DNA of 64,000 nt from Candidatus Porisulfidus sp. TsSOB (lineage in GTDB: Bacteria; Pseudomonadota; Gammaproteobacteria; Poriferisulfidales; Poriferisulfidaceae), in contig MRSX01000003.1 of the NCBI GenBank assembly GCA_002631715.1, forward strand, positions 361,286-425,285, in the 5' to 3' direction. Position numbers and translations under genes: made by a program. The notes beneath the pieces were generated by a model. It was not told where the DNA came from, searched no databases, and worked only from the letters and a program-made list of their open reading frames with translations. Of this stretch, positions 6,940-48,178 are shown piece after piece (position 1 is the stretch's first letter; the number at the start of each line of letters is the position of its first letter).

Positions 6940-7256
6940 GATGCTGCTATTGTGACAAATTTTCGATGCTCTCAGGAAAATTTTTAGCGGAACCTGCGGT
7001 GAACCTGAAGGAGTTTATTTCGCTGAAGCCAGCCGCACATTTTGTCGCGATGGATTTTGAGTCTCTGGTGTTTCCTCGCCGGAGAACATATCGTACAATG
7101 CAAGAAAGGTTCCCCTTTCGCGGTACGCTTTGCGAGGTGTTTGTGTACCATGAATTTTCCAAGTGCTTTGATTACGCTGAAGTTTACGGGACTTCTGATT
7201 TTGTCAGGTCCAGTACATTATCCCCAGTTTTTTCCGAAATCCAGCCCGCGTAACTC

Positions 7257-8792
7257 GTGAAATTTCTCAACAACTTCCTATCCAGAAACCGCGGGCTCGT
7301 CATCGCCGGTTTTGTGGTTCCCGCCAGTTTCGTCTACCACAATGTCGAGAATCTTCGAAAACGGATTCATCGGATGTTGAGGAACACCAGCGCTGAACAC
7401 GACAAAGCCGTCCAGACGATCCAAGCTCATGTGCAGGCTTGCCATGCCACTGGAAAATCAATGTGCACCGCGCGCAAGCCATGGCGAACGATGTCGGTGC
7501 GCAGCGCCGAGTTCAAGAAAGACATGCAGCAGGTTTCCATCAACCTTTGCAATGTCCTTGAGGTCGACGAGAAACGTTTAATCGTTCGCACAGAGCCGAT
7601 GGTCACCGTGGGAGATATTACTTCCTTTCTTGTTCCCAGGGGATTCGCGCTCGCTGTCCAGCCCGAGATGGAAGATCTTACCCTTGGAGGTCTGTGCATG
7701 GGCATCGGCATTGCAACAGGCAGTCACCGAGAGGGCTGCCTGTTCGAGTCGGTCGAGGCCTTCGAGATCGTTACCGCTACCGGAGAGTTTGTTCGCGCCA
7801 CGCGTGACCAGAATGCCGACCTTTTCCACGCTCTGCCCTGTTCCCACGGCACCCTAGGCTTTCTCGTAAGTATTGAGTTTCGCATTGTCCCGATTCAGTC
7901 GCACGTCAAACTCGACTACGAACCATTCCACTCGATCGACGCCTTCTGTGCACGCCTTGAGGAGCTTACCGCTTCCTCCGACGCCCCGCGTTTCGTAGAA
8001 GGACTCGTCTTCTCCAAGGAATCCGGCGTCATACTCGTTGGCGACTACGCGACACCCCCGCCCGGCGCACGCATCAATCGTATCAATGATTACTATAAGC
8101 CATGGTTTTACAGCCATGTTGGCCAGTGTCTGAAGACCGGGGCTGCCAGCGAATACATTCCTGCCCGTCATTATTTCCACCGCCACACGCCTTCCGTGTA
8201 CTTCCAACTGAAGGACCTCATTCCTTTTGCCAACACATCTTGGTATCGCTATTTGTGGGCTTGGATGGGTGCGCCGAAGGTCTCTCTGTTGAAACTGACG
8301 GTAACCCGGGAGCTCCGGCGCCAAGCTTTTGAAAACCGCGTCGTGCAGGACATCATGGTACCGATTGAGAACCTTGCTGAGTCTGTCCGCCTTAGCGACG
8401 AACTGTTCGATATCTACCCACTTTGGGTTGGGCCGGTGCGCCTCTTTGACCACGGTGCGAACGAGGGTTTTTTGCGGAATCCGGCCAACGGCGGCAGTAG
8501 CCAGATGTACGTCGACCTTGGCATTTTCGGTATCCCGCCGAATGCCAAAGCCGGCAACTACGACCAGGTGCCAACCATGCGCCGCCTAGAGAAGTTCGTC
8601 CGTGAGCGTGGCGGTTACCAGATGCTCTATACCGACATCTATATGACTCGCACCGAATTCGAGCACATGTTTGAGCACCGGCTCTACCGGAATATGCGTA
8701 ACAAGTACGCTGTCGAAAACGCCTTCCCCGAGGTCTACGACAAAGTAATACCGGAGAGTTGGCTCATTGATCTGCGAAGCACATCACCATGA
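7257..8792 (+). CDS. FAD-linked oxidoreductase, DHCR24/DWF1-like (delta-24 sterol reductase family)
   Basis: 511 aa. N-terminal TM helix followed by a PCMH-type FAD-binding domain. Same length and architecture as DHCR24. Sits in the sterol cluster. GTG start. Confidence 0.55.
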   Translation: MKFLNNFLSRNRGLVIAGFVVPASFVYHNVENLRKRIHRMLRNTSAEHDKAVQTIQAHVQACHATGKSMCTARKPWRTMSVRSAEFKKDMQQVSINLCNVLEVDEKRLIVRTEPMVTVGDITSFLVPRGFALAVQPEMEDLTLGGLCMGIGIATGSHREGCLFESVEAFEIVTATGEFVRATRDQNADLFHALPCSHGTLGFLVSIEFRIVPIQSHVKLDYEPFHSIDAFCARLEELTASSDAPRFVEGLVFSKESGVILVGDYATPPPGARINRINDYYKPWFYSHVGQCLKTGAASEYIPARHYFHRHTPSVYFQLKDLIPFANTSWYRYLWAWMGAPKVSLLKLTVTRELRRQAFENRVVQDIMVPIENLAESVRLSDELFDIYPLWVGPVRLFDHGANEGFLRNPANGGSSQMYVDLGIFGIPPNAKAGNYDQVPTMRRLEKFVRERGGYQMLYTDIYMTRTEFEHMFEHRLYRNMRNKYAVENAFPEVYDKVIPESWLIDLRSTSP

Positions 8793-8883
8793 CGGAGCTG
8801 CAACATTGAACTCGGTTTCCCTGCATTCTCTTCCGCTCAGCTTTCACGCTCGCCTTCTTGTTGCGCTGCGAAGATTTCTTGGC

Positions 8884-10221
8884 ATGCTGCTAGCGTTGAA
8901 TTTTGTGGCGCTGTGGGCAATACCCATCGTGGCTCAGGGCCGATTGTTTCGCGCCGGGTTACACCGTTTTCTGCGGCCCATCCACCGCCTCCTTGACCAT
9001 TCGGTTCTGTTGCGACACGTTGCCACAAAATACGTCTACCGGCGATCTGTGCATGCGGACTACTTTGCATCCGCAATATTTCTCATGATTGGTCTTGCGC
9101 TATCTCTCGCTGTACTTTTTACCTGGCAAATCTTGTTCGGAGAACTGCCATGGTGGCTCTTAGCGGCATACTATTTTGCATGGGTGGGATTTGGTGGCCG
9201 TGGTATGGGGACGGCATACACCTTGGCCCATCGCGAGGGCCATGTTGCAGGAGGCCGCATGTACCGGCCATGGATCGCCAAACACATTGGAAATATTTTT
9301 GAGAACCGCATCGGTCTATGGTACGGCCTCGTTCCGCACACGTTTTCGACATCGCATATTCTTCTTCATCACCGGCTGAATGCCGGCAAGGCAGACCCGC
9401 TTTACGTGTGGGATCTCGACCGCACCAAATTTAGCGACATGCTTTTGTATCAATGGCGGGCATTCGTGTACGTGACCGGCCTTGGCAGCATTCGAGAATT
9501 CCGCAGACAACAAGGCGTAAATCCGGCGATCCGAAAGGCGCATGCCAAGCTGTCGCGCGGCATGCGGATCTATTGGGTGTATGTGCCGGTGGCACTTGTT
9601 GCACTACTGGTGGCCACGGGCTCGAGTGTTTTATCGTCGCTCATGTTTCTGTTTTTTGTCTACATCCAACCGCTTTTTGCAATGTCGACGTTCATCGCAC
9701 TTGTGACTCTATCGCAGCATGGATTTCTTGAACATGACGAAAAAGGACGAAACCTGAAACACGTGGCTGCGATTACTATTTTAGGTGGTCATGACGATTC
9801 CTTCGGAGAAGACGATCATTTCTCACACCATTATTCTCCTGCTGTTATGCACGACAAACTGGCAGTGGCGCAATCCCTTGAAGAAAGCGAATGGGCTCGT
9901 TGTCACGGTTCCGTCTTCAAGGACACTTCCATAATCGAGATTGCGATTTTTTTGCTGCTTGGGCGGATTGACCGGCTGATTGATCGTCACTACGTAGATT
10001 ACTCAGGAGCACTGGGGAGAGATCAAATCGTCGAGCTGTTTACCCGCCGTGCAAAACGTAAGGAAATGAGCTATGAGGAATATGAATTTCGGTATCTTCC
10101 GGCACTAAGGGACAGCGTTCGCGATCACGTGAAACAAGGCCTCTTCAATAACGAAAACCATGCGTATATTTTCCAGGCCCATCACGAGATTGGTCCCGAG
10201 TTCAGGATGAGCCGAACTTGA
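8884..10221 (+). CDS. Membrane-bound His-box di-iron oxygenase (fatty-acid desaturase/hydroxylase superfamily), putative sterol desaturase/oxidase
   Basis: Multiple TM helices and three histidine boxes: HREGH, HILLHH, HDDSFGEDDHFSHHY. First ATG after the stop of the upstream gene taken as start; a TTG at 8806 is also possible. Confidence 0.5.
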   Translation: MLLALNFVALWAIPIVAQGRLFRAGLHRFLRPIHRLLDHSVLLRHVATKYVYRRSVHADYFASAIFLMIGLALSLAVLFTWQILFGELPWWLLAAYYFAWVGFGGRGMGTAYTLAHREGHVAGGRMYRPWIAKHIGNIFENRIGLWYGLVPHTFSTSHILLHHRLNAGKADPLYVWDLDRTKFSDMLLYQWRAFVYVTGLGSIREFRRQQGVNPAIRKAHAKLSRGMRIYWVYVPVALVALLVATGSSVLSSLMFLFFVYIQPLFAMSTFIALVTLSQHGFLEHDEKGRNLKHVAAITILGGHDDSFGEDDHFSHHYSPAVMHDKLAVAQSLEESEWARCHGSVFKDTSIIEIAIFLLLGRIDRLIDRHYVDYSGALGRDQIVELFTRRAKRKEMSYEEYEFRYLPALRDSVRDHVKQGLFNNENHAYIFQAHHEIGPEFRMSRT

Positions 10222-10233
10222 ACGAGCGGCGAC

Positions 10234-11301
10234 TTATTCAGTTCCTCGATTCTCGGGTTTGCGGGCCAGGAAGAAAAATGCCGGGGTAAAGAGACCGGAT
10301 TCGCCCCCTGCGACCAGTGCGTCCGCCCCCCTGTTCAGCAATGTGCTGACCATGGTGGAGCCTTTCGGAACGACCCGCAGCGTCTCCCCGACCCTTAAGG
10401 TCAAATTGGTCAGGGCGCGCCCGATGGGTGTGCGCGGAATGCTCGCGAGACTAAGGTCGCGACCCTGCAGGGCGCGATACCAAGGCATATCCGGATCCGC
10501 TTCGGGGGCGAGGTCGCGGGCTTCCAAAAACTCGAACCCAGCCGCGCTCAATGCGGGGCCGATTTCCGATGTGATGGTGATATCCGGTAGCCCATTCCCT
10601 TTCTCGATATCTTTCTTGATCCGAAGGTGCCGGGCATTCTCCGGATCGAAGTCCTCGGTGAGGCACCACTCGTAGCCCGCGAAGCAGGCTCCTGGGCGCA
10701 GGATGCGGAAGACCTCCCGGAACGCTGCGATCTTGTCCGGCGCGTGGGGCATGGACTCGATCGCGATGGCGGCGTCGTAGGAGTTGTCGTCCTCGGGAAT
10801 CTGCATGAAATCACCGTGGATGAAGCGGCACAGCGACTGGATGTCTTGGCTTTGTGCTTCGGCACGCTTGATCTGGTAGGCATTATTGTTGAGACCGACG
10901 AAACTGGCCCCGGAATAACGGGCCAGCGTGCGCATTGGTCCCCCGATCCCGCAGCCCAGGTCAATGACCTGCATCCCGGGTTTCAGTGACAGCTGATCAG
11001 CTAGGAAATGCTCGTGCCTGAGCAGTGACTCCTTGAAGCTTTCGCCTCGAAGCCGGGGCGCGAAGTGAAAGGACTGACCCCAGCCGAATTCGTAAAAGTC
11101 GGTCGCCAGGTCGTAGTAGTGATTGACGAGTATCTGGTAGTCCTCTTTCCTGTTCTCCAGGTCGTCATCGTGGAGCCCGGTGTACTGATCGACCGCCTGG
11201 GTCACTTCATCCGGAGTGAGATCCGAGAAGGAACGGGAACTCGATTGTTTGGTGGAGGTGCGGCTCATTCGGTTATCCTGCCAGTTCGCGCTCTTCTTCA
11301 A
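10234..11301 (-). CDS. Sterol C-24 methyltransferase (ERG6/SMT family)
   Basis: Signature YYDLATDFYEFGWGQSFHFA (SMT region I) and SAM motif VIDLGCGIGGP. ATG overlaps the stop of the upstream SQMO-OSC ORF (ATGA). Confidence 0.8.
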   Translation of the reverse strand: MKKSANWQDNRMSRTSTKQSSSRSFSDLTPDEVTQAVDQYTGLHDDDLENRKEDYQILVNHYYDLATDFYEFGWGQSFHFAPRLRGESFKESLLRHEHFLADQLSLKPGMQVIDLGCGIGGPMRTLARYSGASFVGLNNNAYQIKRAEAQSQDIQSLCRFIHGDFMQIPEDDNSYDAAIAIESMPHAPDKIAAFREVFRILRPGACFAGYEWCLTEDFDPENARHLRIKKDIEKGNGLPDITITSEIGPALSAAGFEFLEARDLAPEADPDMPWYRALQGRDLSLASIPRTPIGRALTNLTLRVGETLRVVPKGSTMVSTLLNRGADALVAGGESGLFTPAFFFLARKPENRGTE

Positions 11302-14300
11302 GAAGCGGCAGATACGCTGTGCGGCTCTTCCAGGGCCGCTGCCGCCAAAGGCACCGTGTCGCTCTCAATTGCGTCGGTAGCAAGGGAATCGGCAGTTGCC
11401 AGTTCCAGCCGGGCCCGGCGCCGTTGCTCATAGAGGCCAAGCGCGCGTAGGGGGAAATACTGCCGATACAGAACGTAGTCCAGCAGGGCCGTACGGAAAA
11501 AGACCCCGGCCATGTCTTGCTTGGGCCATGCGCCATCCGCGTTTTGGGTGTCGAGCAGGAACCGGGCACCCCGCGAGATCGCGGCCCAGTTGGGATCGTC
11601 CGCCTCAAGGAGCGCAATCAATGCCCATGCGGTCTGGATAATCTGGCTTTCGTCGTGTGCAACGTATTGGCCGGTGAAGCAACCGCTGTAGTGCTCACCC
11701 CATCCTCCGTCTCCGCGCTGACGGTCCAGCAGCCATTGGCAGGCCAAGCGTAGTACCGGATCGCCGGGGCGGGCCCCGGCTGCAAGCAGGCCCCTGATTC
11801 CGAAGGAAGTACCGTAGATGAACTGAACCCCCCATACGCCGCGCCACGATCCATTGCTTGCCTGAGTCCGGCGAAGCCAGGCGCCGGCTTGCGACATGGC
11901 ATCCGTCACTGCTTGGTCCGTGGTGTCCGGAAAGTGCTTCTTGCAGGCTGCGAGTGCCGCAAGGCAAGAAGCGGTGCACTCGACATAGGAATGTTCAGTC
12001 ATCGACTCGCCGAACATCTCGGCCGGATTCAGCCATTCAAGCCCGATTACGGAGCGTTGCGCTTCATAGCTGCCGAAACCGCCATCGCGGTTCTGGCCCC
12101 GCAGCATGAACTGGATCGCGTCTTTGAGCATGGTTGTGTTCGTCGCCTCGCGGTGGGCAGCGATAATTCCGAGCACTGCTTCCGCAGTGCAGTCGGTGAC
12201 CGGCCAGCCATGCCACTGTCCGGCAAAGCACCAGCCACCCTTGGGGTCGTTTCGAAAAGCCTCACGAAATCCTTCGAAACTGGTCTTGATTTGTTGCGTT
12301 TCCAGGAAATCGGCCCCGCGTTGGAGGGAATTTCGAACTTCAGGGGCCAGATCGAGTCTGGACATTGTTTCCAATGCTTGCAGGGCGAAGCCGGTATCCC
12401 ACGAAATGCTTCTCGCCCCGGTGACTCGTGCCCCGTATTCCTCGTCTTCCCAGATCCAGTCGTCCAATTTCTCGAGTGCTTGGCGACTGTCGGGGTCGTT
12501 CGGGTTGCGCAGCCATAAGGCCAGGATGTTGAGGAGCCCGCTGACCGGGGAGATGCTCGTGTGATTGGTCGTTCGCAGTTCCCATTGGATTCGCTCGGTG
12601 ATCGTGTCCATGCATCGAGCGCGCAGGTGTTTACTATGGAATCGTTCAAATAACTGCGAAAACCCATACCCGACCCGGAGCCATACACTGGGCCGCGCAT
12701 GGAGGTCGGCGCTTCGCAGACGATTGCGGCCCGCGGAAAAGCCGACGTTGGCAAAACCCTCGGGATATAGCTCTTCTCGCAGTGATGCGATCAAAGGCGT
12801 GACAGGTGCCTGAAACCGATATGAGTAGACAGCCGACATCGCCATGTAGATGAGCCGGGTATGGCAATACCAGTTGGAGGGGTGCAGCGGAATCCAACGC
12901 GGCAGGCTCCACAGTTCCGGCAGGATGGCGTTGATTCCGCGCCAGTCGTAGAGGTTGAGGAGCGCCAGCCAGAATTTTCCCCAACTCGGAATGCCGAGGA
13001 CTCCTTCGGTCTGCAGGAATTCCTGGGCCGGCTTCAGCAGTGGATCATCCCGCTCGACGCCAAGCAGCCTCGCCGCGACGTAAACCAGCGTGGTGACAAA
13101 CAAGTTGGGAGGCGGGTGCTCGTGCAGGCCCCATGCGCCTCCTTCTAGGCGAGTCTGTTCGAAAGACCGCAGCACGCGTCGGCGTCGGTCGGGATCGAGC
13201 GGCTGCTCCATGATGTAGTGCAGCAGTACGTACTGCGCGGTGAGCATGGGGCACCAAACCATCTCGCCTTCCCAGGCGCCATCCCCATCCTGGAGATCCA
13301 GCAGGCGCTCGCTCGCGCTCTTCAATGCCGGGCCGGCATCGGGCGATTCGACCGTCCACGGGCGGGCGGGTTGAGAGTCGTCGGCCTTCGACGGGATGGA
13401 GACCAGGAACGTGTGGGACCAAGTGGCCCGGATTTGCTCGTCCTCTCCTTCGCCCGTGTTTCTCGCCCGGTGCAACATCCGAGCACCCCGCAGCAACCAT
13501 TTGAGACGGCCCGAGAGTGAATTGAAGGTATCCCGGGCACGGCGCCAGGCAAGTTTGTCGAAGGATCGCGGCATTTCTCTGGCAATCGCCCGGACCATCG
13601 TCGTGAAAAACGCGGAACTCAGGTGGATAACCGATGTGTCTTCACAGGCGAGTAAACGCATGGTCCGGTCGCGCATCGTAGAATTTGCCCGCCAGCCTCG
13701 GTAGGTTGCATGTCGGAGAGCCACCACCTCGGCCCGATGATCGGCAAAGACCTCGTAGAGTCCTATGGCAAGGAACTCCGGAGTACGGATCGCCCGGAAA
13801 CGCTTCTTGGTGAAGTCGCGAAAGTCCCCGTTCTCGGCGAGTGCAAGCGCATCACCGAAACCGAGGGTGATTCCAACCGCCGACATGGGATGGTAGTGCC
13901 CGGCCGCATCGCCGATCAGCACTCGATTCGGACTCCCGTAGCTAACACGCGGCCTCAGCTTATTACTGGCAGTGCGAAACCGCCCCGCCCGCAGCGCTTC
14001 AACAAACGCGGGTCGGACTGATTCCGGCAACCAACCGGTGTACGAGTCCAACAGGAACCCAATCCGATCCCGGGGTGTCCAGCGATCCGCCGGAACATCT
14101 ACGACGATGCGCACGCCGCGCTCTCCGAGGCGGTACATGAGGATCGGCCCGGGTCCACCCCCCAACACGTACCCATAACCCTCCAACGGCAACGTCACGT
14201 CATCGACCAAAACTCCTACCATCCACGAGCAAGTTTTATGGTTCGTCGGCAAGCCCAGTGATCGACGCACGACCGAACCCCGACCGTCGGCACCGACGAT

Positions 14301-14759
14301 CCGCGCAGCCGCGACAGACTCATCGGTCCCGTTGCGAGTAAAAGTGATTCGTCCGTCTACGACCTCACGAACCTGTGCATTGAGAATGAAATCAATACTC
14401 GATTTGCTCTCGATCGCTTCGTGCAGATGCGAGACGAGCACCGCATGCTCGCAGGCCAACCCGTGAGCGCCGTCCGGATAGGGAAGTATGATCGGTTCCG
14501 AGTCGTCTTCCGGGCACACCACGAACCCGTTGCCTGCCCCGATGGGAGGCTGCGTGTCGAGCCCGATCCCGATCTCGCGCAGTATCCGCACGGCGGGGGG
14601 GTGCAGCCATTCTCCCGCTAGTCGCTTGGAAGCCTCGGGGCTCGCTTCGAGCAGGACAACCCGGGCGCCTTTTCGCGCGTAGGCGAGCGCACACACACTG
14701 CCGACTGGCCCCCCGCCGACAATCGCGACATCGTAATGCCGGGTGGGGGGGATGCTCAC
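11298..14759 (-). CDS. Fused squalene monooxygenase (N-terminal) and oxidosqualene cyclase (C-terminal)
   Basis: N-terminal half has the FAD motifs DVAIVGGGPVGS and LIGDAAGHYHP of squalene epoxidases. C-terminal half has QW repeats and VTDCTAEAV (OSC-type DCTAE, not SHC DxDDTA). One uninterrupted frame. Start taken at a GTG (14759) overlapping the CYP51 TGA; the ORF-track TTG at 14828 is the alternative. Confidence 0.8.
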   Translation of the reverse strand: MSIPPTRHYDVAIVGGGPVGSVCALAYARKGARVVLLEASPEASKRLAGEWLHPPAVRILREIGIGLDTQPPIGAGNGFVVCPEDDSEPIILPYPDGAHGLACEHAVLVSHLHEAIESKSSIDFILNAQVREVVDGRITFTRNGTDESVAAARIVGADGRGSVVRRSLGLPTNHKTCSWMVGVLVDDVTLPLEGYGYVLGGGPGPILMYRLGERGVRIVVDVPADRWTPRDRIGFLLDSYTGWLPESVRPAFVEALRAGRFRTASNKLRPRVSYGSPNRVLIGDAAGHYHPMSAVGITLGFGDALALAENGDFRDFTKKRFRAIRTPEFLAIGLYEVFADHRAEVVALRHATYRGWRANSTMRDRTMRLLACEDTSVIHLSSAFFTTMVRAIAREMPRSFDKLAWRRARDTFNSLSGRLKWLLRGARMLHRARNTGEGEDEQIRATWSHTFLVSIPSKADDSQPARPWTVESPDAGPALKSASERLLDLQDGDGAWEGEMVWCPMLTAQYVLLHYIMEQPLDPDRRRRVLRSFEQTRLEGGAWGLHEHPPPNLFVTTLVYVAARLLGVERDDPLLKPAQEFLQTEGVLGIPSWGKFWLALLNLYDWRGINAILPELWSLPRWIPLHPSNWYCHTRLIYMAMSAVYSYRFQAPVTPLIASLREELYPEGFANVGFSAGRNRLRSADLHARPSVWLRVGYGFSQLFERFHSKHLRARCMDTITERIQWELRTTNHTSISPVSGLLNILALWLRNPNDPDSRQALEKLDDWIWEDEEYGARVTGARSISWDTGFALQALETMSRLDLAPEVRNSLQRGADFLETQQIKTSFEGFREAFRNDPKGGWCFAGQWHGWPVTDCTAEAVLGIIAAHREATNTTMLKDAIQFMLRGQNRDGGFGSYEAQRSVIGLEWLNPAEMFGESMTEHSYVECTASCLAALAACKKHFPDTTDQAVTDAMSQAGAWLRRTQASNGSWRGVWGVQFIYGTSFGIRGLLAAGARPGDPVLRLACQWLLDRQRGDGGWGEHYSGCFTGQYVAHDESQIIQTAWALIALLEADDPNWAAISRGARFLLDTQNADGAWPKQDMAGVFFRTALLDYVLYRQYFPLRALGLYEQRRRARLELATADSLATDAIESDTVPLAAAALEEPHSVSAAS

Positions 14760-16144
14760 TGGAAAATGCTGGCCTGCGGGCGGCGGCGGTAACGGATTCG
14801 GCAGGGTTCCCTGGGGCCTGTCACCCAACTGCCGTAATTCGGTTCGGGAAACTCGGTGACGGGCTGAAAATCAAAGCGATCAAACAGCACGGTCCAGATT
14901 GCTTTCAGTTGCATGTAAGCAAAATGTTCACCGATGCACCGGTGTTTGCCGCCGCCAAAACTGATCAAGGCATAGTGGTGCTGTTTGCCCTCGGATGCAG
15001 GTGGGGCGAAACGGTCTGGGTTGAAGCGGTTCGGATCGGCAAACAGGTGGGGCAACCGTTGGGAGACCGCCGGCGACACCATGGCCAAGGCACCGGCTGG
15101 CACGACATGATCCTTGTAGTGCAAGGGCCTGAGTACCTTGCGGATTAGCATGATCAACGGCGGGTGCATCCGCTCGCATTCGCGAATGGCGTGCTCTAGT
15201 GTGACTTGGTGCCTGAGGCTCTCGTAGCTCACGGTTCCTGCCTCGCGGTAGGTGTCTTGCACCTCGTCTTTCACCCGCGCCAGGTACGACGGGGCCCTCA
15301 TGAGTTCCAGAAGGGTCCAGGTTGCGAGCACCGCGCTGGTGTGCTGGCCCGCGAACAGCACCGTCAGCAGGATTCCGGTAATCTCGTCATCGCTTGGGGC
15401 GTGGCCATCCTTGTACCGAGCGTTCATGAGGGTCTGCATGAAATCTTCAGGCTGGGCATCGGTTCGCCGACGTTCCGCCATGATCTGGCCGAAGAGCTTG
15501 GCGACTTTTCGGCGGGCCCGGTCGCGGCTCCGATGTGCCGGGATTGGGAGATAAGGGAAAAAGAACCCCAGGGTGTTGATGCCGTTTTGCAGTTCGTGGT
15601 ATGCCTCGGCGAATCCTGCGTCCAGCTGGGCCCGGACTTCCTCTCCAATGAGGCAACGGCTGGCGATCTTGACGGTGAGTTCGTTCATAGCGTGGGGCAG
15701 GTCGACTTCCCCATGCTCGCCGAGATCCTCGGCGAACTGCCAAGTCTCCTCGAACATGATGCGGGCGAACCGGCGCATCGCGGCTTCATTGAGCGCCGGA
15801 TACAGAAATCCCAATTGCTCGAGCATCAGTTCAGGCGTAGTGTCGTAAGCCACGCCACGCCCGAAGATGGGCACCGTGAACTGGTAGACCTCTTTGGCGC
15901 TGAGCTGGTCTTCGGGTGCGTGGAAGTAGAAGTCGTGAGCTTCGGGCCCGGTGAAGAGGAAGAATTCGCGCGGGCCGAGCCGGAACCGGATGAGCTCGCC
16001 CTGCTCGCGCCAGCCGCGCTGCAGCATCGCGATCGGGTCCTTCTGGAAATCCAGCAGATGGCCGATCAACGGCCACCTGCCCGCGACCTCGGGAATGGCC
16101 CGGGACTCCTGCGGCGAAAGTGGGGTGGAACGTACGGTGGTCAT
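14756..16144 (-). CDS. Sterol 14-alpha demethylase (cytochrome P450 CYP51)
   Basis: Heme loop FGGGKHRCIGEHFA, I-helix AGQHTSA and B' region YQFTVPIFGRGVAYD are CYP51 signatures. Start at MTTVRS, 14 nt after the reductase stop. Confidence 0.8.
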   Translation of the reverse strand: MTTVRSTPLSPQESRAIPEVAGRWPLIGHLLDFQKDPIAMLQRGWREQGELIRFRLGPREFFLFTGPEAHDFYFHAPEDQLSAKEVYQFTVPIFGRGVAYDTTPELMLEQLGFLYPALNEAAMRRFARIMFEETWQFAEDLGEHGEVDLPHAMNELTVKIASRCLIGEEVRAQLDAGFAEAYHELQNGINTLGFFFPYLPIPAHRSRDRARRKVAKLFGQIMAERRRTDAQPEDFMQTLMNARYKDGHAPSDDEITGILLTVLFAGQHTSAVLATWTLLELMRAPSYLARVKDEVQDTYREAGTVSYESLRHQVTLEHAIRECERMHPPLIMLIRKVLRPLHYKDHVVPAGALAMVSPAVSQRLPHLFADPNRFNPDRFAPPASEGKQHHYALISFGGGKHRCIGEHFAYMQLKAIWTVLFDRFDFQPVTEFPEPNYGSWVTGPREPCRIRYRRRPQASIFQ

Positions 16145-16158
16145 GTCGTCAGGTTGCT

Positions 16159-17253
16159 TCAATAGACGAATGGCAGCATCGCGAAACGCACTCGCTTCGT
16201 ATACCGCTCCCACAGTTCGCCGTACTTGGCGCGGCAGCGACGGTCGTCGCGTCTTGAGCGATGCGACAACAGACCCACCAACCACGCGGGCAGCAGGTAG
16301 GGCACCCAGGATGCGAATCCGGTGGTCAGGGCGAACGAAAAGTAAATGCAGATCTCGCCGGTATAGTTGAGATGCCGCCCGACTCCCCAGAACCCGGAGA
16401 CCAGCAGGCGCCCGTCCAGGGACTCGGCGGGCTTCCCCCAGATCTTGGCGTGGGAGTCACGCTTGAAACGGTGCTTTTGCCCGTTGGCGCCGCGGAAGAG
16501 CCAGAAGCCGAAGACAAACAGCAGGGTGATTGCGACGGCAGCGACGGGGGACAGGGGCTCGGTTGCATGGACCAGCCACCAGCCGGCAAGGCAATAGAAG
16601 AACGGCACCAGCACGTAGTCTCCCCAGACCAGCATCCATCCGAAGCGCTCGCTGACGATGTCCCAGGTGTGAACCATTCCGTATTCGAAGTGGAAGTAGT
16701 TGAGGACGTACAGGAAGGTGAAGGCCTGGTAAAGCATCATGGCCAAGGTCAGTTCGCCGTAGGTTTCGTATTGCACGGCGGCGAACGAGACGTTGAACAA
16801 CGCGAGGCCGATGAGGGAAGGGCGGTAACTGAAAAACTTCAGATCCACCCCAAACCAGGTCGGATGGCCTTCCACGCCATAGAAGAAGCCCTCCAGTCCT
16901 CTTGGGGAATCGCCCTGGGCTCGGGTGCCTTGGTAGTACAGCAAGGCGGAAAAAGCAAACGCGAATACGTTCGCCACCACGAACAGGGCGAGAAAGTGGG
17001 TATACAGCACCGAAAGAGAGAACCAGCCGGAGACTTGGGCAAGCCCTCCCACGACCATGGTCAGCAGGAACAGGGCAAGCCCATTGCTCCTGTAGATCCT
17101 TGATTTTCCATCGTAATCTGGACCCGTAATCCGGCGTCCGGGCAACAGCATCGAACCCAGGAACAGAAAGCCGAAGAATGCCAGCATCATGGCTGCCGCG
17201 TCGAGCAGGGTGCTGCCGGACAGCGCAATCAGCGAGAAGGGCAGTTCAGGCAT
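16159..17253 (-). CDS. Sterol reductase, ERG4/ERG24 family (C-14 or delta-24(28)/delta-7 reductase)
   Basis: Polytopic membrane protein with the C-terminal signature LLVSGFWGVGRHLNYTGEICIYFSFAL. Confidence 0.8.
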   Translation of the reverse strand: MPELPFSLIALSGSTLLDAAAMMLAFFGFLFLGSMLLPGRRITGPDYDGKSRIYRSNGLALFLLTMVVGGLAQVSGWFSLSVLYTHFLALFVVANVFAFAFSALLYYQGTRAQGDSPRGLEGFFYGVEGHPTWFGVDLKFFSYRPSLIGLALFNVSFAAVQYETYGELTLAMMLYQAFTFLYVLNYFHFEYGMVHTWDIVSERFGWMLVWGDYVLVPFFYCLAGWWLVHATEPLSPVAAVAITLLFVFGFWLFRGANGQKHRFKRDSHAKIWGKPAESLDGRLLVSGFWGVGRHLNYTGEICIYFSFALTTGFASWVPYLLPAWLVGLLSHRSRRDDRRCRAKYGELWERYTKRVRFAMLPFVY

Positions 17254-18343
17254 AGGTGTTGCCGTTCTCCGCTTTGCGTGCCAGGTATTCCCGCCACTTG
17301 CGCACGGTCACGTCCTGGAAAGCCTCGACCACGGGGTTGAACTCGACGGTCGGAGCGTCCCAATGTTTTTCGTAACCTTCCTGTTCTCCTTCGAGCGCGT
17401 ATTGATCCTGGGTGAGCAACGGGCCGATGAGGATGCGGTTCGAGATCTTTAGAACAAAGGTCATGGCGAAACGGGGAATGTGGACCGGCAGAAAGGGTAT
17501 CTTCAGCGACTTGAAATAGAACAAAAAGAAGGTCCGGGTGGTCCGCTCGTCGATGGGCAGCACGAAAAGCCAGTGTTTGATCCAGTCATCGGTGTTCGAC
17601 CATTGGTAAGGGTATTGGAAGCAGAGATCCATGTGATTGGTGTCGAGTTTTTTGTGGTCGACGAATAGCCCGGAGATACGCCCGCGTCCGACCTGAGTCT
17701 CGTAGGAGAGGTGCACGTCATCGCCGATGGTCTCGCAGCGGGTGAGGGTGGCGCCGACGAAAGGCCGGTATTCACGGTGCAGATGGGCATGAGAGAAGTC
17801 GCTCACGTTGTCGATCACCATAGAGTGGTGGGCCGACCAGGTGAAAGTGAGCGGGACACAGGCCCATCGGCCGCGTCCCTCGAGTTCGGGGATGTCCGGG
17901 ATCTGCCGCGATTCCGCCTTCTCCGGGTCTCCGGGAAACAACCAGACCAGGCCGTAACGGACTTTTACGGGGTAGGATCGGATCGAGACGTTCTGACAAC
18001 TTTCCCCGAGGTGCTCGCGAGGCCCTCCGGCACGTTGCCCCTCTCCGTCGTATTGCCAGCCATGGTAGGCGCAGACCAGCCGACAGTCCTCGACATGGCC
18101 GAGGGAAAGCTTGAGCTGGCGGTGGGCGCAACGATCCTCGACCGCATGGAACGAGCCGTCCTTCGCCCGGAACAGTGCGATGGCATGCTTCCAGAAAACG
18201 ACTTCAGTCACGCTTCCCGGCTTGACGCGACGTACTTCTTCGACCGCGTACCAATAATCCGGGTCCATGCCCGCGGCGCGTGCTTTCTGGCGTAAATTGC
18301 TGGCTTCATCGAAGCCAGGAGGCGGGCTTGTCATTGAGTCCAT
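17246..18343 (-). CDS. Rieske [2Fe-2S] non-heme iron oxygenase, SdmA-like (bacterial sterol C-4 demethylase oxygenase)
   Basis: Rieske motif CAHRQLKLSLGH...CAYHGWQY. Location between a sterol reductase and an NAD-dependent reductase mirrors sdmA-sdmB. Confidence 0.65.
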   Translation of the reverse strand: MDSMTSPPPGFDEASNLRQKARAAGMDPDYWYAVEEVRRVKPGSVTEVVFWKHAIALFRAKDGSFHAVEDRCAHRQLKLSLGHVEDCRLVCAYHGWQYDGEGQRAGGPREHLGESCQNVSIRSYPVKVRYGLVWLFPGDPEKAESRQIPDIPELEGRGRWACVPLTFTWSAHHSMVIDNVSDFSHAHLHREYRPFVGATLTRCETIGDDVHLSYETQVGRGRISGLFVDHKKLDTNHMDLCFQYPYQWSNTDDWIKHWLFVLPIDERTTRTFFLFYFKSLKIPFLPVHIPRFAMTFVLKISNRILIGPLLTQDQYALEGEQEGYEKHWDAPTVEFNPVVEAFQDVTVRKWREYLARKAENGNTYA

Positions 18344-18344
18344 T

Positions 18345-19487
18345 TCAGCCTCCGTCCGAAGTGATGGGTGTGCCTTGATCCGGCATGAGTTCTTCTACTT
18401 GTCCCGCGCCGTCCGTGCATGGGGGTTTCGCGTCCGGGTTCGTGATCGCCTTGCGCTGGTGGTAGTGAAAGGCGTAGGCTTCGTGGACCGCGGCGCGGAT
18501 GCTGGTCGGTCGGTAGCCGAGTTCCTCTTTCGCCTTGCTGTTGTTGGCATGGCGGCACTTTTGCAGCAGGCGGATGGCGCCGGGAGTGAAGCGCTGGGGG
18601 AAGCTCGGATGGAACCGGCTCAGGTAAAAACTGGCCACTTCCGAGAAAGCGAGCATCGCGCGGACTGGAATCCGCCGGTGCGGGCGCGGGATGCCGGAGA
18701 CTTCCTCGTACAGGTCGATGATGTCGGAGATGGTTTTGTACTCGGAACTGAAGATATATTTCTCGCCCGAGCGTCCTCGGTCCATGCACAACCGGTGTCC
18801 TTCAACGATGTCCCGTGCCGCGACAAACTCGAAGCCGCCATCGACGTAGGCATGGAGTTTGCCGTTCGTGTAATCGCACAGGGTTCTACCCAATCGCGAG
18901 GGGAAGAAATCGCTGCCCCCCACAACCGCGCAGCACGTCGCGACCAAGACGTCCTGTCCGGCTGACGCGGCGCGCCAGCACTCGTGTTCGACGAGTGTCT
19001 TGCTGCGCTCGTAGGGCATCGTACGTTCCATGGGATAGAAAAGCATCGTCTCGTCGCTGGGGGCGGAAGGGTCATCCAGGTTGTACCCGACCGCGCTGAA
19101 GGAGCCCGTCACGACCACCCGGCCGGCTTCCGTCTCCCGTGCCGCCTGCAGCATGTTGCGGGTGCCGAGAACGTTGCATTCGTATATTTCCCGACGGTGG
19201 GCGTGGTTTCCTTCGATGGTCGAAACCTTGGCTGCACAGTGATAGACGCCCTGGCAGCCCTCGACCGCACGCCTGACGGAATTCAAGTCCCGGAGGTCGC
19301 CGAACACGCGTTCGACCTCGAGGCCTTCCAGCGCCTCGTTGTTCTCTTCGTGTCTTAGCAGCACCCGGACCCGGGTGCCTTCGTCGAGTAGCCGGCGCAC
19401 GAGATTGGCGCCCACGTGTCCAGCCGCACCGGTAACGAAAACGGGTGCAGCCGATGAATTGCCGGGTGTGCTCGATCCTGAAGTCAT
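18345..19487 (-). CDS. NAD(P)-dependent epimerase/dehydratase (3-beta-HSD-like) family reductase, SdmB-like
   Basis: Rossmann motif VFVTGAAGHVGANLVRRL and catalytic YERSK. First gene of the minus-strand sterol operon. Confidence 0.65.
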   Translation of the reverse strand: MTSGSSTPGNSSAAPVFVTGAAGHVGANLVRRLLDEGTRVRVLLRHEENNEALEGLEVERVFGDLRDLNSVRRAVEGCQGVYHCAAKVSTIEGNHAHRREIYECNVLGTRNMLQAARETEAGRVVVTGSFSAVGYNLDDPSAPSDETMLFYPMERTMPYERSKTLVEHECWRAASAGQDVLVATCCAVVGGSDFFPSRLGRTLCDYTNGKLHAYVDGGFEFVAARDIVEGHRLCMDRGRSGEKYIFSSEYKTISDIIDLYEEVSGIPRPHRRIPVRAMLAFSEVASFYLSRFHPSFPQRFTPGAIRLLQKCRHANNSKAKEELGYRPTSIRAAVHEAYAFHYHQRKAITNPDAKPPCTDGAGQVEELMPDQGTPITSDGG

Positions 19488-19747: not shown

Positions 19748-20077
19748 CTATTTCGCAGGAGCGAAGAGGATTACTAGGGTGAGAATGCCGGTTATGGTTC
19801 CGGTTGCCCCGCCCGCGACGGCCAGGATGTGCCAAGAGAGTTTATTGAACCTTGCTTCCATCTCCCCACGCAGTCTAAATTCCATCTCCGCCAAGTCAGC
19901 CTTCGTCGCTAACTCGCTTTGCGCATCCTGAAGGGTCTCGACCAAGGTCACGGCCTGTTTGTCTCCGAATTCTGCTTTCTTCAGATTCTTGACAGCCCGC
20001 AGTGTATCAAAGTTCGGCGGGGTGACCTTTTTGCGCGCATCGGTTGTGGCTTCGGACCTTTTTGCGCTCGGGTTCAT
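19748..20077 (-). CDS. DUF1640-like coiled-coil protein with C-terminal TM helix
   Basis: LATKADLAEMEFRLRGEMEARFNKL... followed by a hydrophobic tail. Start at MNPSAKR with a strong SD (AAGGAGA). Confidence 0.45.
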   Translation of the reverse strand: MNPSAKRSEATTDARKKVTPPNFDTLRAVKNLKKAEFGDKQAVTLVETLQDAQSELATKADLAEMEFRLRGEMEARFNKLSWHILAVAGGATGTITGILTLVILFAPAK

Positions 20078-20389
20078 ATCGGTTCTCCTTGACGGGGGCG
20101 GGATGAATGTGGGGAGACTCTTTCTATTGAGGGTCTCCATGGCTAGGTTCGGGATGATGCCATGAGATCGGTGAAAATCAAGGAAAAATGGTCGGAATTT
20201 TTAGACCGTTTTTTCTAAATTAGAATCAAACGGTTAGAGATCAAACTGAATGCCTGTGAGTCGGATTTTCGAGAGTTTTTCGTGTTTTTAGTTTCGTGGG
20301 CTCGTCGATTCCTGCAGAGTGCGGATTTTTCGACTCGGCCGGATGGATCAGACCCGGATAACCATACTAAGGGCTTCCGGAGAAGGGAT

Positions 20390-20779
20390 TCACGGAACTG
20401 AGAGCCAGCCGCGGATTTCGGCTTGGATGCTTCTTATCTGCCTGAGCGCAGCTTGAATTTCGGAAGGCTCAGGAGGTCTTGGAAATTCGCCTTCGGCATC
20501 CGGATAACGCCAGGCGGTTGCTGCCCCGGTGAGGCTGTCGAGTTTGACGAGGCTTTTCCTGAGAGGGTGTTCTTGGGCTAGTTGTTCGGTAATTCGGGTG
20601 ATGTCGTGGGTACGAAGATCCGGGAGCCCTTCGTGCAGGCACACGGCACGCGCGAGTTTTTCTGCAGCCTGCTGGGCGTGGAATGCCGCCAGGTCCGGGA
20701 GGTCTGGAAGGAGAAGATCGACGCCAGCGATATCCCGTTCGGCGGTCTTCAGGAATCCTAGGACAAGCGGAGAGGTCAT
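20390..20779 (-). CDS. HEPN domain protein (toxin component of a HEPN/MNT pair)
   Basis: AAFHAQQAAEKLARA-type HEPN helix. ATGA overlap with the upstream MNT gene. Confidence 0.6.
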   Translation of the reverse strand: MTSPLVLGFLKTAERDIAGVDLLLPDLPDLAAFHAQQAAEKLARAVCLHEGLPDLRTHDITRITEQLAQEHPLRKSLVKLDSLTGAATAWRYPDAEGEFPRPPEPSEIQAALRQIRSIQAEIRGWLSVP

Positions 20780-21308: not shown

Positions 21309-21397
21309 TGGAATCCTCCTGTGTATTACACTCTGTAATACACATTTGAGAAATGTAAAGCATGCGGGAGTGTCTGTCAAACAGGTATGATTGAAGC

Positions 21398-44167: not shown

Positions 44168-44243
44168 GGATGCGCTGGCGATTCGGGAAACCTATAATCA
44201 CACATCAGCGCACACGGGCTATTGATTCCTTGAGCGGTGAACC

Positions 44244-48121: not shown

Positions 48122-48178
48122 CAGGGTGGATATCATTTATCCCTAAACAATTACACCTTATCCCAACCCGAACAAACC

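What the first reader, a model, noticed from the sequence alone, without database searches (positions are those of the whole stretch)
7257..8792. DHCR24/DWF1-like FAD oxidoreductase, a possible delta-24 or delta-24(28) sterol reductase
A 511-aa protein with an N-terminal membrane anchor plus a PCMH FAD-binding domain. Its length and architecture match DHCR24/DWF1. It starts at a GTG and diverges from mutS. Together with the SMT it would complete a plant or fungus-like side-chain pathway. Generic FAD-linked oxidases (GlcD/LdhD-like) look similar at this level, so the call depends heavily on genomic context.
Basis: inference. Interest (0 to 1): 0.55.

Follow-up and report, generated by a model that had tools for sequence, protein, structure and literature searches.

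The report
Bacterial DHCR24-type sterol side-chain reductase gene
This gene in a sponge-symbiont bacterium is a true relative of the human and plant enzyme that saturates the sterol side chain, sits in a complete sterol-making gene cluster, and was already listed as a DHCR24 homolog in a 2023 paper, so it is real but not new.

Summary
The ORF at 7257-8792 (+, GTG, 511 aa) is real and under purifying selection (dN/dS 0.09-0.14). It is a full-length member of the DHCR24/DWF1 delta-24 sterol reductase family. It shares 40.8% identity with human DHCR24 over 500 residues (E 1e-138) and 34% with Arabidopsis DWF1. Nine of 12 human disease or FAD-contact positions checked are conserved. Hits to GlcD, LdhD and other VAO families are weak and confined to the FAD domain.

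It heads a sterol cluster: DHCR24-like, a His-box desaturase-like gene, an SMT, a fused squalene epoxidase-oxidosqualene cyclase, CYP51, ERG24, SdmA and SdmB.

The window appears to be the 444,506-bp contig of the Theonella swinhoei-associated Chromatiales MAG studied by Brown et al. 2023. Their Supplementary Data 1 already lists this gene as a DHCR24 homolog (40.8%, 4e-134), untested.

The substrate is unresolved: delta-24(25), or the SMT's 24-alkylidene products as with plant DWF1. Linkage to an SMT in two bacterial lineages favours the second role. A close relative's cluster without an SMT shows the first role is also possible. The adjacent desaturase-like gene is the least understood part.

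The parts
7257..8792 (+). DHCR24/DWF1-family FAD-dependent sterol delta-24 reductase homolog (511 aa, GTG start; end includes the TGA stop)
   Evidence: ORF. 40.8% identity to human DHCR24 over 500 aa, E 1e-138. Homologs named delta24-sterol reductase. dN/dS 0.09-0.14. AF2 model pLDDT 87.4 with a VAO-type two-domain fold.
7290..7379 (+). N-terminal predicted helix (residues 12-41) holding the only hydrophobic stretch (residues 13-27); a putative membrane-association segment
   Evidence: DSSP on the AF2 model. Hydropathy 1.99 over 15 residues but only 1.25 over 19. Aligns with the human DHCR24 N-terminal segment. Codons 1-68 are under purifying selection.
7473..7799 (+). PCMH-type FAD-binding domain (residues 73-181)
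   Evidence: Pfam PF01565 FAD_binding_4, 45.8 bits. Counterparts of human R94, R103, L167, M169 and E191 are conserved (R73, R82, L146, M148, E170).
7899..8756 (+). C-terminal DHCR24-specific (substrate/cap) domain (about residues 215-500)
   Evidence: No Pfam model covers it, but it aligns end to end with human DHCR24. Counterparts of human N294, Y471, D473 and E480 are conserved (N274, Y458, D460, E467).
6940..7256 (.). Divergent intergenic spacer between mutS and the reductase gene; presumed promoter region
   Evidence: Sequence. One sigma-70-like match at 6952-6981 on the + strand, but the number of matches in the region is not above the shuffled expectation.
8806..10221 (+). His-box membrane di-iron protein of the FA_desaturase superfamily (471 aa, TTG start), 13 nt after the reductase stop; probable same operon; function unknown
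   Evidence: Pfam PF00487, 38 bits. Start inferred from the 95%-identical P0324, which begins MNSVSL. Next to the reductase in 13 related loci. Weak fold match to AlkB only. Unassigned gene 2690455921 in Brown et al..
10234..11301 (-). Sterol C-24 methyltransferase (SMT)
   Evidence: Pfam Sterol_MT_C 74.5 bits plus methyltransferase domains. Corresponds to gene 2690455922, 'T. swinhoei associated Chromatiales sp. 1 of 2', in Brown et al..
11298..14828 (-). Fused squalene epoxidase-oxidosqualene cyclase (1176 aa)
   Evidence: Pfam SE and FAD_binding_3 at the N-terminus; SQHop_cyclase_N and _C at the C-terminus. ERG1 and ERG7 hit the same gene ID in Brown et al..
14756..16285 (-). Cytochrome P450, CYP51-type sterol 14-demethylase (listed start probably too far upstream; it overlaps ERG24)
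   Evidence: Pfam p450 198.7 bits. ERG11 homolog 2690455924.
16159..17253 (-). ERG4/ERG24-family sterol reductase, most likely the C-14 reductase
   Evidence: Pfam PF01222 239 bits. Assigned to ERG24 by Brown et al.. Retained in the SMT-less cluster L003.
17246..18343 (-). SdmA-like Rieske oxygenase (bacterial sterol C-4 demethylation)
   Evidence: Pfam Rieske and VanA_C. 44.5% identity to M. capsulatus MCA1016 in Brown et al..
18345..19487 (-). SdmB-like NAD(P)-dependent 3-beta-HSD/epimerase-family reductase (C-4 demethylation)
   Evidence: Pfam Epimerase and 3Beta_HSD. sdmB homolog 2690455927.

Best explanation
The ORF encodes a bacterial orthologue of the eukaryotic FAD-dependent delta-24 sterol reductase (DHCR24 in animals, DWF1/DIM in plants). 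It belongs to the symbiont's own de novo sterol pathway.

Shown here:
- Family membership over the full length.
- An intact FAD domain, with conservation of residues that are FAD contacts or disease sites in the human enzyme.
- Purifying selection.
- Placement at the head of a cluster that encodes squalene epoxidation and cyclisation (a fused enzyme), C-14 demethylation and reduction, SdmAB C-4 demethylation and C-24 methylation.

Inferred:
- The protein sits on the membrane through its N-terminal helix.
- It takes electrons from NAD(P)H through FAD and saturates the C-24 double bond of the sterol side chain.
- It acts on delta-24(25) sterols derived from lanosterol. Probably, like plant DWF1 and as proposed for annelid DHCR24, it also acts on the SMT's 24-alkylidene or 24-alkyl-delta-24(25) products, giving saturated 24-methyl and 24-ethyl side chains.
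- The downstream His-box protein is probably co-transcribed and is probably a further sterol-tailoring enzyme.
For: Family membership:
- 40.8% identity and 61% positives over 500 aa to human DHCR24, E 1e-138. The sequence was verified as DHC24_HUMAN. The result is the same against Zalophus DHCR24. Identity to DIM_ARATH is 34%.
- Homologs are named delta24-sterol reductase.
- R73, R82, L146, M148, E170, N274, Y458, D460 and E467 match human R94, R103, L167, M169, E191, N294, Y471, D473 and E480. That residue list comes from PMC10795535.
- The AF2 model is confident (pLDDT 87.4) and has the VAO two-domain fold.
- dN/dS is 0.09-0.14.

Context:
- The full sterol cluster sits at 7257-19487 and is syntenic in L002 and L008.

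Link to the SMT:
- An SMT lies within 10 kb in 8 sponge-symbiont-type loci.
- An SMT-Rieske-DHCR24-like three-gene arrangement occurs in 11 full Myxococcota-type loci, plus one cut at a contig end.
- Other bacterial clusters pair the SMT with an ERG4-type 24-reductase instead. This suggests that a reductase partner for the SMT is a recurring need.

Precedents:
- A 'canonical C-24 reductase' is assigned to cholesterol synthesis in Enhygromyxa (PMC12004948).
- DHCR24 is proposed to reduce fucosterol to sitosterol in annelids.
- Brown et al. list this very gene as a DHCR24 homolog.
Against: - No activity data exist for this protein. None of the papers I read reported an assay of any bacterial DHCR24 homolog; their roles are inferred.
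- The substrate cannot be read from the sequence.
- A delta-24(25) reductase competes with the SMT for the same double bond.
- The close relative L003 (MutS 97% identical) has the reductase and the core cluster but no SMT or desaturase-like gene between them. The SMT is therefore not obligatory.
- Many related loci carry the gene with no sterol gene within 10 kb.
- E174 of the human enzyme, reported as an FAD contact, is Ala in this subclade.
- The N-terminal segment is only weakly hydrophobic, and the GTG start lacks a ribosome-binding motif.
- The gene's GC content (0.548) is lower than that of its neighbours (0.59-0.62), so it may have a separate history from the core cluster.
Confidence: 0.82

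Rival explanations
1. Strict animal-type DHCR24. The enzyme reduces only delta-24(25) of non-alkylated sterols such as lanosterol, zymosterol or desmosterol-type intermediates. It yields cholestane-type side chains and competes with the SMT rather than finishing its products, so the 24-alkylidene sterols stay unsaturated.
For: It is closer to animal DHCR24 (41%) than to plant DWF1 (34%). At positions M148, D460 and E467 it matches the human residue, not the Arabidopsis one. L003 has the reductase with the core cluster but no SMT. Bacteroidota-type homologs sit near SdmAB-like genes with no SMT within 10 kb (L031, L033).
Against: The gene is adjacent to an SMT in two distant bacterial lineages. 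Some bacterial SMTs make 24-methyldesmosterol, a delta-24(25) sterol that even a strict DHCR24 might accept. The host sponge's main sterol has a saturated 24-ethyl side chain.
Confidence: 0.3
2. The enzyme remodels sterols taken up from the sponge host or its diet, rather than serving the bacterium's own pathway.
For: Many related loci have the gene with no sterol-synthesis gene within 10 kb: Alphaproteobacteria L006, Ca. Azotimanducus L015, Ca. Poriferihabitans with two copies (L020, L021), Aestuariivita L019 and Coxiellaceae L029. In Coxiella, orphan sterol reductases of a different family act on host sterols.
Against: In this window the gene adjoins a complete de novo cluster that is syntenic in relatives. 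I could not scan whole genomes, so the 'orphan' status of the other copies is unproven.
Confidence: 0.1
3. A generic FAD-linked oxidase or dehydrogenase (GlcD/LdhD, alditol, lactone oxidase or cytokinin dehydrogenase type) that merely lies next to sterol genes.
For: Pfam recognises only FAD_binding_4. NCBIfam and PDB searches return VAO-family members.
Against: Those hits cover only the FAD domain and score far below family cutoffs: GlcD 26 against 567.9, and lactone oxidase 39 against 396.8. PDB sequence hits have E of about 1e-7. By contrast, DHCR24 aligns over the full length at E 1e-138.
Confidence: 0.02
4. A decaying or unexpressed gene, a relic of horizontal transfer.
For: GTG start without a Shine-Dalgarno motif. 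Lower GC than its neighbours. Some related copies gave internal stops when I extended the match in frame (L009, L056, L058).
Against: The 511-codon frame is intact. dN/dS is 0.09-0.14 against four to five orthologs. Catalytic and FAD residues are conserved.
Confidence: 0.03

Closest known systems
Human DHCR24 (seladin-1; delta(24)-sterol reductase, EC 1.3.1.72)
   Same: Same length class (511 against 516 aa). Same order of N-terminal helix, PCMH FAD domain and C-terminal domain. 40.8% identity end to end. Nine of 12 checked disease or FAD positions are conserved.
   Different: Bacterial host and operon context. The N-terminal segment is much less hydrophobic. The positions matching human E174, K306 and L324 differ (A153, S286, A303). 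An SMT lies next door, which mammals lack.
Arabidopsis DWF1/DIM (plant delta-24 sterol isomerase-reductase acting after SMT)
   Same: Same family (34% identity). Same pathway logic: an SMT creates a 24-alkylidene sterol and a DHCR24-type enzyme saturates it. This is established plant biochemistry, recalled from general knowledge.
   Different: Lower identity than to the animal enzyme. The C-terminal motif region follows the animal pattern (D460, E467). Isomerase activity on delta-24(28) is untested.
'Canonical C-24 reductase' homologs of Myxococcota (Enhygromyxa salina, Nannocystaceae, Nannocystis)
   Same: Bacterial DHCR24 homologs assigned to the last step of cholesterol synthesis (PMC12004948; PMC10152446). 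Myxococcota-type homologs are 43-47% identical to the window protein.
   Different: A different clade in my tree. Many of the Myxococcota copies sit in an SMT-Rieske-reductase operon rather than next to an OSC cluster.
ERG4-type C-24(28) reductases next to bacterial SMTs, and Coxiella Stmp1 (CBU1206)
   Same: Same proposed pathway position, as the reductase partner of an SMT (Walker Lake and Beatty hot-spring clusters).
   Different: An unrelated fold: polytopic ERG4/ERG24 family, PF01222, NADPH-dependent and without flavin. The window's ERG4/ERG24-family gene (16159-17253) is assigned to C-14 reduction.
Bsr, the geranylgeranyl-reductase-type bacterial C-24 sterol reductase
   Same: Same reaction, FAD-dependent saturation of delta-24, in bacteria (PMC12004948).
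   Different: A different flavoprotein family (GGR). The window ORF has no GGR features.
Cytokinin dehydrogenase (closest solved structures, e.g. 3s1d, 2qpm)
   Same: VAO/PCMH two-domain fold with TM about 0.6. It also handles an isoprenoid side chain.
   Different: 12-18% identity, an oxidase direction of reaction and a different substrate. This is a fold relative only.

Membership tests
DHCR24/DWF1 delta-24 sterol reductases | Full-length sequence homology to characterised members, covering both the FAD domain and the family-specific C-terminal domain | tested here: met
   Human DHCR24: 204/500 identical, E 1e-138, query residues 1-497. Reference sequences verified as DHC24_HUMAN and DIM_ARATH. 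34% identity to DWF1.
DHCR24/DWF1 delta-24 sterol reductases | PCMH-type FAD-binding domain | tested here: met
   PF01565, 45.8 bits against a cutoff of 26.4, residues 73-181.
DHCR24/DWF1 delta-24 sterol reductases | Conservation of residues whose mutation inactivates human DHCR24 (desmosterolosis) or that contact FAD | tested here: met
   R94, R103, L167, M169, E191, N294, Y471, D473 and E480 are conserved. E174, K306 and L324 are not (residue list from PMC10795535).
DHCR24/DWF1 delta-24 sterol reductases | N-terminal membrane-anchoring hydrophobic segment | tested here: inconclusive
   A homologous helix at 12-41 contains a 15-residue hydrophobic core. The Kyte-Doolittle 19-residue mean is 1.25, against 1.99 in human. 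No dedicated TM predictor was available.
DHCR24/DWF1 delta-24 sterol reductases | Closer to this family than to any other VAO/PCMH family | tested here: met
   Other families hit only the FAD domain, at 16-39 bits and far below their cutoffs. PDB sequence hits have E >= 4.5e-7. Named homologs are delta24-sterol reductases.
DHCR24/DWF1 delta-24 sterol reductases | NADPH- and FAD-dependent reduction of a sterol C-24 double bond | not testable with these tools
   Needs an enzyme assay. The papers I read reported none for this protein or for any bacterial homolog.
DHCR24/DWF1 delta-24 sterol reductases | Occurs in a sterol-synthesising organism or pathway context | tested here: met
   Cluster with SQMO-OSC, CYP51, ERG24, SdmAB and SMT at 10234-19487. 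Syntenic in L002 and L008.
   TIGR00387 glcD scores 26 bits against a cutoff of 567.9. No FAD-oxidase_C Pfam hit. Glycolate oxidase and LctD have E 0.07-0.35 in the PDB search.
ERG4/ERG24 sterol reductases (the fungal C-24(28) reductase type) | PF01222 polytopic membrane domain | tested here: not met
   No PF01222 hit in this ORF. The family is present in the neighbouring gene 16159-17253.
Bsr (GGR-type bacterial C-24 reductase) | Geranylgeranyl reductase family flavoprotein fold and motifs | tested here: not met
   The only Pfam hit is FAD_binding_4. Family definition from PMC12004948.

The most novel reading that the evidence does not exclude
The reductase, the SMT and the adjacent uncharacterised His-box di-iron protein form a horizontally mobile sterol-tailoring module. 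It is shared by sponge symbionts of several phyla. In Theonella swinhoei the Chromatiales symbiont, not the sponge, makes the sponge's hallmark sterols theonellasterol and conicasterol. These carry a saturated 24-ethyl or 24-methyl side chain, a retained and oxidised C-4 carbon, and an 8(14) double bond. Under this reading the DHCR24-like enzyme supplies the saturated 24-alkyl side chain. The 4-methylene group would come from an SdmA shunt or from the His-box enzyme.
Probability: 0.2. Interest if true: 0.65.

Novelty: already known. Interest (0 to 1): 0.3.

Why it matters
Bacterial sterol side-chain chemistry bears on two questions. One is how far 24-alkyl steranes in old rocks can be read as eukaryote or sponge markers. 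The other is who makes the unusual sterols of sponges.

Brown et al. showed that bacterial SMTs from sponge symbionts, this MAG's among those tested, can alkylate C-24. However, every product they report keeps a side-chain double bond. A working DHCR24-type reductase in the same cluster would let a bacterium finish plant-like saturated 24-alkyl sterols on its own.

For biomarker work the step is minor, because diagenesis saturates the chain anyway. For sponge natural products it matters more. Theonellasterol and conicasterol are nuclear-receptor ligands, and this cluster points to a testable symbiont origin.

As a gene call, though, it is a recognised homolog in a published cluster.

Tried and rejected
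- **Generic FAD oxidase reading:** rejected. NCBIfam, Pfam and PDB hits outside DHCR24 are confined to the FAD domain and far below cutoffs.
- **Structure search as a discriminator:** uninformative beyond the VAO fold, because no DHCR24 structure is in the PDB.
- **Promoter and terminator scans of 6800-10400:** counts were not above the shuffled expectation.
- **ATGA overlap at 8789-8792:** I considered it as coupling to the next gene. That ATG is out of frame with the downstream ORF. The supported start is TTG 8806.
- **NTF2-type 8,14-sterol reductase:** I looked for one near the cluster, because the host sterol has an 8(14) double bond. None was found. The small ORFs upstream of SdmB are a HEPN/nucleotidyltransferase pair and an unassigned 130-aa ORF.
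- **Is the His-box protein always linked to the reductase?** No. More distant members (50-57% identity) sit in unrelated contexts. Sequence and fold searches gave no useful relative except a weak AlkB match.
- **In vitro result for this MAG's SMT:** I could not read it. It is only in a figure that is not held.
- **Literature search for Theonella + Chromatiales + sterol:** nothing found.
- **Coxiella 'delta-24 reductase' (CBU1206):** I considered it as a relative. It is ERG4/ERG24-type, so it is not relevant to membership.
Full report
**1. The observation**

The six-frame ORF list shows 7257..8792 (+), 511 aa, with a GTG start. The translation is uninterrupted. An in-frame TAA at 7251-7253 means GTG 7257 is the earliest possible start. 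mutS (all five MutS domains) occupies 4336-6939 on the minus strand. The two genes therefore diverge across a 317-bp, relatively AT-rich spacer.

Pfam finds one domain, FAD_binding_4, at residues 73-181 (45.8 bits against a cutoff of 26.4).

**2. The start codon and the 'anchor'**

Public gene calls for the identical sequence begin at ATG 7461 and give 443 aa (P0003). That call would remove the N-terminus. Four results support the long form:
- tblastn matches in related genomes begin at query residues 1-6.
- Human DHCR24 aligns from query residue 1.
- P22, S24, H48 and V59 are invariant in a 50-sequence alignment that includes animals.
- Codons 1-68 have dN/dS of 0.12-0.31 against five orthologs.

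No Shine-Dalgarno-like motif precedes the GTG.

The AlphaFold model places a long helix at residues 12-41. Its hydrophobic core spans only residues 13-27. The Kyte-Doolittle mean over 19 residues is 1.25, against 1.99 for the human enzyme. I treat this as a membrane-association segment, not a demonstrated transmembrane anchor.

**3. What the protein is**

NCBIfam gives only sub-threshold, FAD-domain-only hits:
- BagG, 39 bits against a cutoff of 850
- sugar lactone oxidase, 39 against 397
- DprE1, 33 against 500
- GlcD, 26 against 568

A sequence search of the PDB gives VAO-family members at E of 4.5e-7 or weaker, again over the FAD domain only. No DHCR24 structure exists there.

A search of the large protein collection returns 907 homologs. 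Full-length matches run from 94% down to 46% identity. Several are named 'delta24-sterol reductase' by JGI. Others are 'FAD-binding protein' from Gammaproteobacteria, Rhodobacteraceae and Bacteroidota MAGs.

BLASTP against human DHCR24 gives 204/500 identities (40.8%), 61% positives and E 1e-138, spanning both domains. I first typed the human and Arabidopsis sequences from memory. An exact-sequence look-up then confirmed them as DHC24_HUMAN and DIM_ARATH. A search with the human sequence returned only animal delta(24)-sterol reductases among the 120 best hits listed. A database copy, Zalophus DHCR24, gives the same alignment. Identity to Arabidopsis DWF1 is 34%.

I checked positions where human mutations cause desmosterolosis or that contact FAD; the list comes from PMC10795535. 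R94, R103, L167, M169, E191, N294, Y471, D473 and E480 are conserved as R73, R82, L146, M148, E170, N274, Y458, D460 and E467. E174, K306 and L324 are not conserved.

The AlphaFold model is confident (pLDDT 87.4, pTM 0.88). Its nearest solved folds are cytokinin dehydrogenase, galactonolactone dehydrogenase, DprE1 and alditol oxidase, with TM about 0.55-0.61 and 12-18% identity. That is the expected VAO fold. D-lactate and glycolate oxidases are not among the 50 best matches.

dN/dS over the whole gene is 0.09-0.14.

**4. Context**

The gene heads a sterol cluster:

| Coordinates | Strand | Product |
|---|---|---|
| 8806-10221 | + | His-box FA_desaturase-superfamily protein |
| 10234-11301 | - | SMT with the Sterol_MT_C domain |
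| 11298-14828 | - | 1176-aa fusion of squalene epoxidase and oxidosqualene cyclase |
| 14756-16285 | - | P450 (CYP51) |
| 16159-17253 | - | ERG4/ERG24-family reductase |
| 17246-18343 | - | SdmA-like Rieske oxygenase |
| 18345-19487 | - | SdmB-like reductase |

The rest of the window is housekeeping: recA, alaS, lysC, lysS, dxs, mreB and gatAB. It also holds a lower-GC glycosyltransferase region.

**5. Provenance and prior knowledge**

Brown et al. 2023 (PMC10070321), Supplementary Data 1, has a sheet titled 'T. swinhoei Chromatiales MAG'. It lists:

| Gene ID | Assignment in Brown et al. |
|---|---|
| 2690455920 | DHCR24 homolog (40.8% to human, E 4e-134) |
| ..921 | no assignment |
| ..922 | SMT |
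| ..923 | hit by both ERG1 and ERG7 |
| ..924 | ERG11 |
| ..925 | ERG24 |
| ..926 | sdmA |
| ..927 | sdmB |

This is exactly the order in the window. The identity figure equals mine (204/500).

Their Supplementary Table 2 gives the contig as 444,506 bp. That is the same length as the longest contig carrying the 100%-identical reductase and desaturase-like proteins. I conclude that the window comes from that contig.

The main text of the paper does not discuss the reductase, and nobody appears to have assayed it.

Bacterial DHCR24 homologs are recognised elsewhere:
- The 'canonical C-24 reductase' of Enhygromyxa and Nannocystaceae (PMC12004948).
- Nannocystis (PMC10152446).
- Hoshino and Gaucher infer that DHCR24 arose in eukaryotes (PMC8237579).
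- Sterol clusters that spread horizontally among sponge symbionts were described for Ircinia (PMC9531527).

**6. Distribution**

A scan of one genome per species found 71 loci, all of them MAGs.

| Identity to window protein | Taxa |
|---|---|
| 65-94% | Taxa typical of sponge microbiomes, across phyla: Chromatiales (94%), Ca. Porisulfidus (91%), Nitrospirales (81%), an alphaproteobacterium (80%), Arenicellales, Ca. Poriferihabitans (two copies), Ca. Azotimanducus, Rhodobacteraceae |
| 54-59% | Bacteroidota, and one Coxiellaceae MAG |
| 43-48% | Myxococcota (43-47%); Bacteroidales and Eudoraea (47-48%) |

In a neighbour-joining tree the plant and animal enzymes form one clade and the bacterial sequences form others. 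The sponge-symbiont group mixes Gamma- and Alphaproteobacteria with Nitrospirales, which implies horizontal transfer. This tree is rough: distance-based, midpoint-rooted and without support values.

**7. Which double bond?**

tblastn with the window's cluster proteins gave three patterns:
- Full synteny in L002 and L008.
- A close relative, L003 (MutS 97% identical), has the reductase directly abutting the SQMO-OSC gene, with neither the SMT nor the desaturase-like gene.
- An SMT lies within 10 kb of the reductase in eight sponge-type loci, in various orders.

In Myxococcota-type loci the arrangement is SMT, then a Rieske/KshA_C oxygenase, then the reductase. This occurs in 11 full loci plus one cut at a contig end. 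These loci are not embedded in an OSC cluster.

In other bacterial clusters of Brown et al. the SMT neighbours an ERG4-type 24-reductase instead.

Recurrent pairing of an SMT with a side-chain reductase of either type argues that the reductase finishes SMT products. Plant DWF1 does this, and the same has been proposed for annelid DHCR24 acting on fucosterol. The SMT-less L003 cluster and the SMT-less Bacteroidota contexts argue that plain delta-24(25) reduction is also a native role.

Sequence slightly favours the animal type: 41% against 34% identity, and human-like residues at M148, D460 and E467. No specificity determinants are established, so I leave the substrate range open and rank a dual role first.

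**8. Mechanism**

This section is inferred from the family. Reducing equivalents from NAD(P)H pass through the bound FAD to the C-24 double bond of a membrane-embedded sterol. The protein is held at the membrane by its N-terminal helix. If the enzyme is DWF1-like, an isomerisation from delta-24(28) to delta-24(25) precedes the reduction. None of this is shown here.

**9. The neighbour gene**

The downstream ORF is best read from TTG 8806, giving 471 aa. The 95%-identical P0324 starts at the matching position. It begins 13 nt after the reductase stop. Public calls truncate it to 320 aa.

It carries three His boxes (HREGH, HILLHH, HFSHH) and matches Pfam FA_desaturase only weakly, at 38 bits. 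Its family is small: 181 hits, none named beyond 'hypothetical' or 'fatty acid desaturase'. It has no PDB sequence relative. A confident model (pLDDT 86.8) finds only a weak fold match to AlkB.

It lies next to the reductase in 13 loci. More distant members sit elsewhere. It is the unassigned gene ..921 of the published cluster.

Both this gene (GC 0.512) and the reductase (GC 0.548) are lower in GC than their neighbours (0.59-0.62).

**10. A speculative link**

T. swinhoei's main sterol is theonellasterol. It is a 4-methylene-24-ethyl sterol with an 8(14) double bond. Its 4-methylene group has been proposed to arise by a shunt of oxidative 4-demethylation (PMC3264597; PMC3280575).

The cluster encodes 4-methyl oxidation (SdmA), C-24 alkylation (SMT) and a candidate side-chain reductase. 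A symbiont origin for these sterols is therefore conceivable. I found no NTF2-type 8,14 reductase in the window, and I have no lipid evidence. I give this reading a low probability.

**11. Verdict**

The gene is a recognised DHCR24 homolog in a published cluster, so it is already known. What remains open is biochemical: the substrate range, the role of the His-box neighbour, and whether the symbiont makes the host's signature sterols.

Noticed in passing
window 8806-10221 (+): An uncharacterised His-box (HREGH, HILLHH, HFSHH) membrane di-iron protein of the FA_desaturase superfamily lies 13 nt after the reductase stop. It is adjacent to the reductase in 13 related loci, and with the SMT it forms a recurring three-gene set in varying order (L005, L007, L009, L038, L056). 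It is the one unassigned gene (2690455921) inside the published cluster. Its family is small (181 hits), it has no PDB sequence relative, and its only fold match is a weak one to AlkB.
   Followed up: partly
window 11298-14828 (-): Squalene epoxidase and oxidosqualene cyclase are fused into a single 1176-aa ORF. The same spacing of SQMO and OSC hits on one strand appears in L002, L003, L008, L010, L016 and L022-L024. In Brown et al., ERG1 and ERG7 hit the same gene ID in three clusters. I found no paper that discusses the fusion.
   Followed up: partly
window 7257-7460 and 8806-9258: Public gene calls truncate both genes. The reductase is called from ATG 7461 (443 aa) and the desaturase-like gene from 9259 (320 aa). 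These calls cut off a conserved N-terminal helix and part of the Pfam domain respectively.
   Followed up: yes
window 7257-10221; L003 9869-11597: The reductase (GC 0.548) and the desaturase-like gene (GC 0.512) are lower in GC than the flanking genes (0.59-0.62). In the close relative L003 the desaturase-like gene and the SMT are both absent, and the reductase abuts the SQMO-OSC gene. The roughly 2.5-kb SMT plus desaturase-like pair therefore behaves as an indel.
   Followed up: partly
L002-L027, L038, L043, L056: The reductase clade at 65-94% identity spans Gammaproteobacteria, Alphaproteobacteria and Nitrospirales MAGs of sponge-symbiont type, which implies horizontal transfer. Many copies have no sterol gene within 10 kb, and Ca. 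Poriferihabitans carries two copies (L020, L021). L003 is nearer to the window than L008 by MutS (97% against 90%) but farther by the reductase (87% against 91%).
   Followed up: partly
L046 7756-11596, and L042, L045, L048-L050, L053, L059-L061, L070 (L047 partial): Myxococcota-type loci carry a compact SMT, Rieske/KshA_C oxygenase and DHCR24-like arrangement on one strand. It is flanked by unrelated genes (phospholipase D, sensor kinase, DctP). This looks like a stand-alone sterol-tailoring operon.
   Followed up: partly
L009, L056, L058 (reductase matches): Extending the reported match in frame gave 1, 13 and 21 internal stops respectively. These could be pseudogenes, long-read frameshift errors or an artefact of my extraction. 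I did not resolve this.
   Followed up: no
window 19748-21516 (-): Directly upstream of SdmB lie an unassigned 130-aa ORF and a HEPN plus nucleotidyltransferase pair that resembles a toxin-antitoxin system. No NTF2-type 8,14-sterol reductase is present, although the host's main sterol has an 8(14) double bond.
   Followed up: partly
window 44000-52000: A lower-GC stretch (0.48-0.54) holds glycosyltransferases (GT1, GT2, GT9), a UDP-glucose dehydrogenase-like gene, an FkbM methyltransferase and a HipA-like kinase. It is probably a horizontally acquired surface-polysaccharide island.
   Followed up: no
window 35627-37477 (+): dxs, the first enzyme of the MEP isoprenoid pathway, lies about 16 kb from the sterol cluster. 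No squalene synthase was found among the ORFs of this window that I scanned; Brown et al. list an ERG9 homolog elsewhere in the MAG.
   Followed up: no
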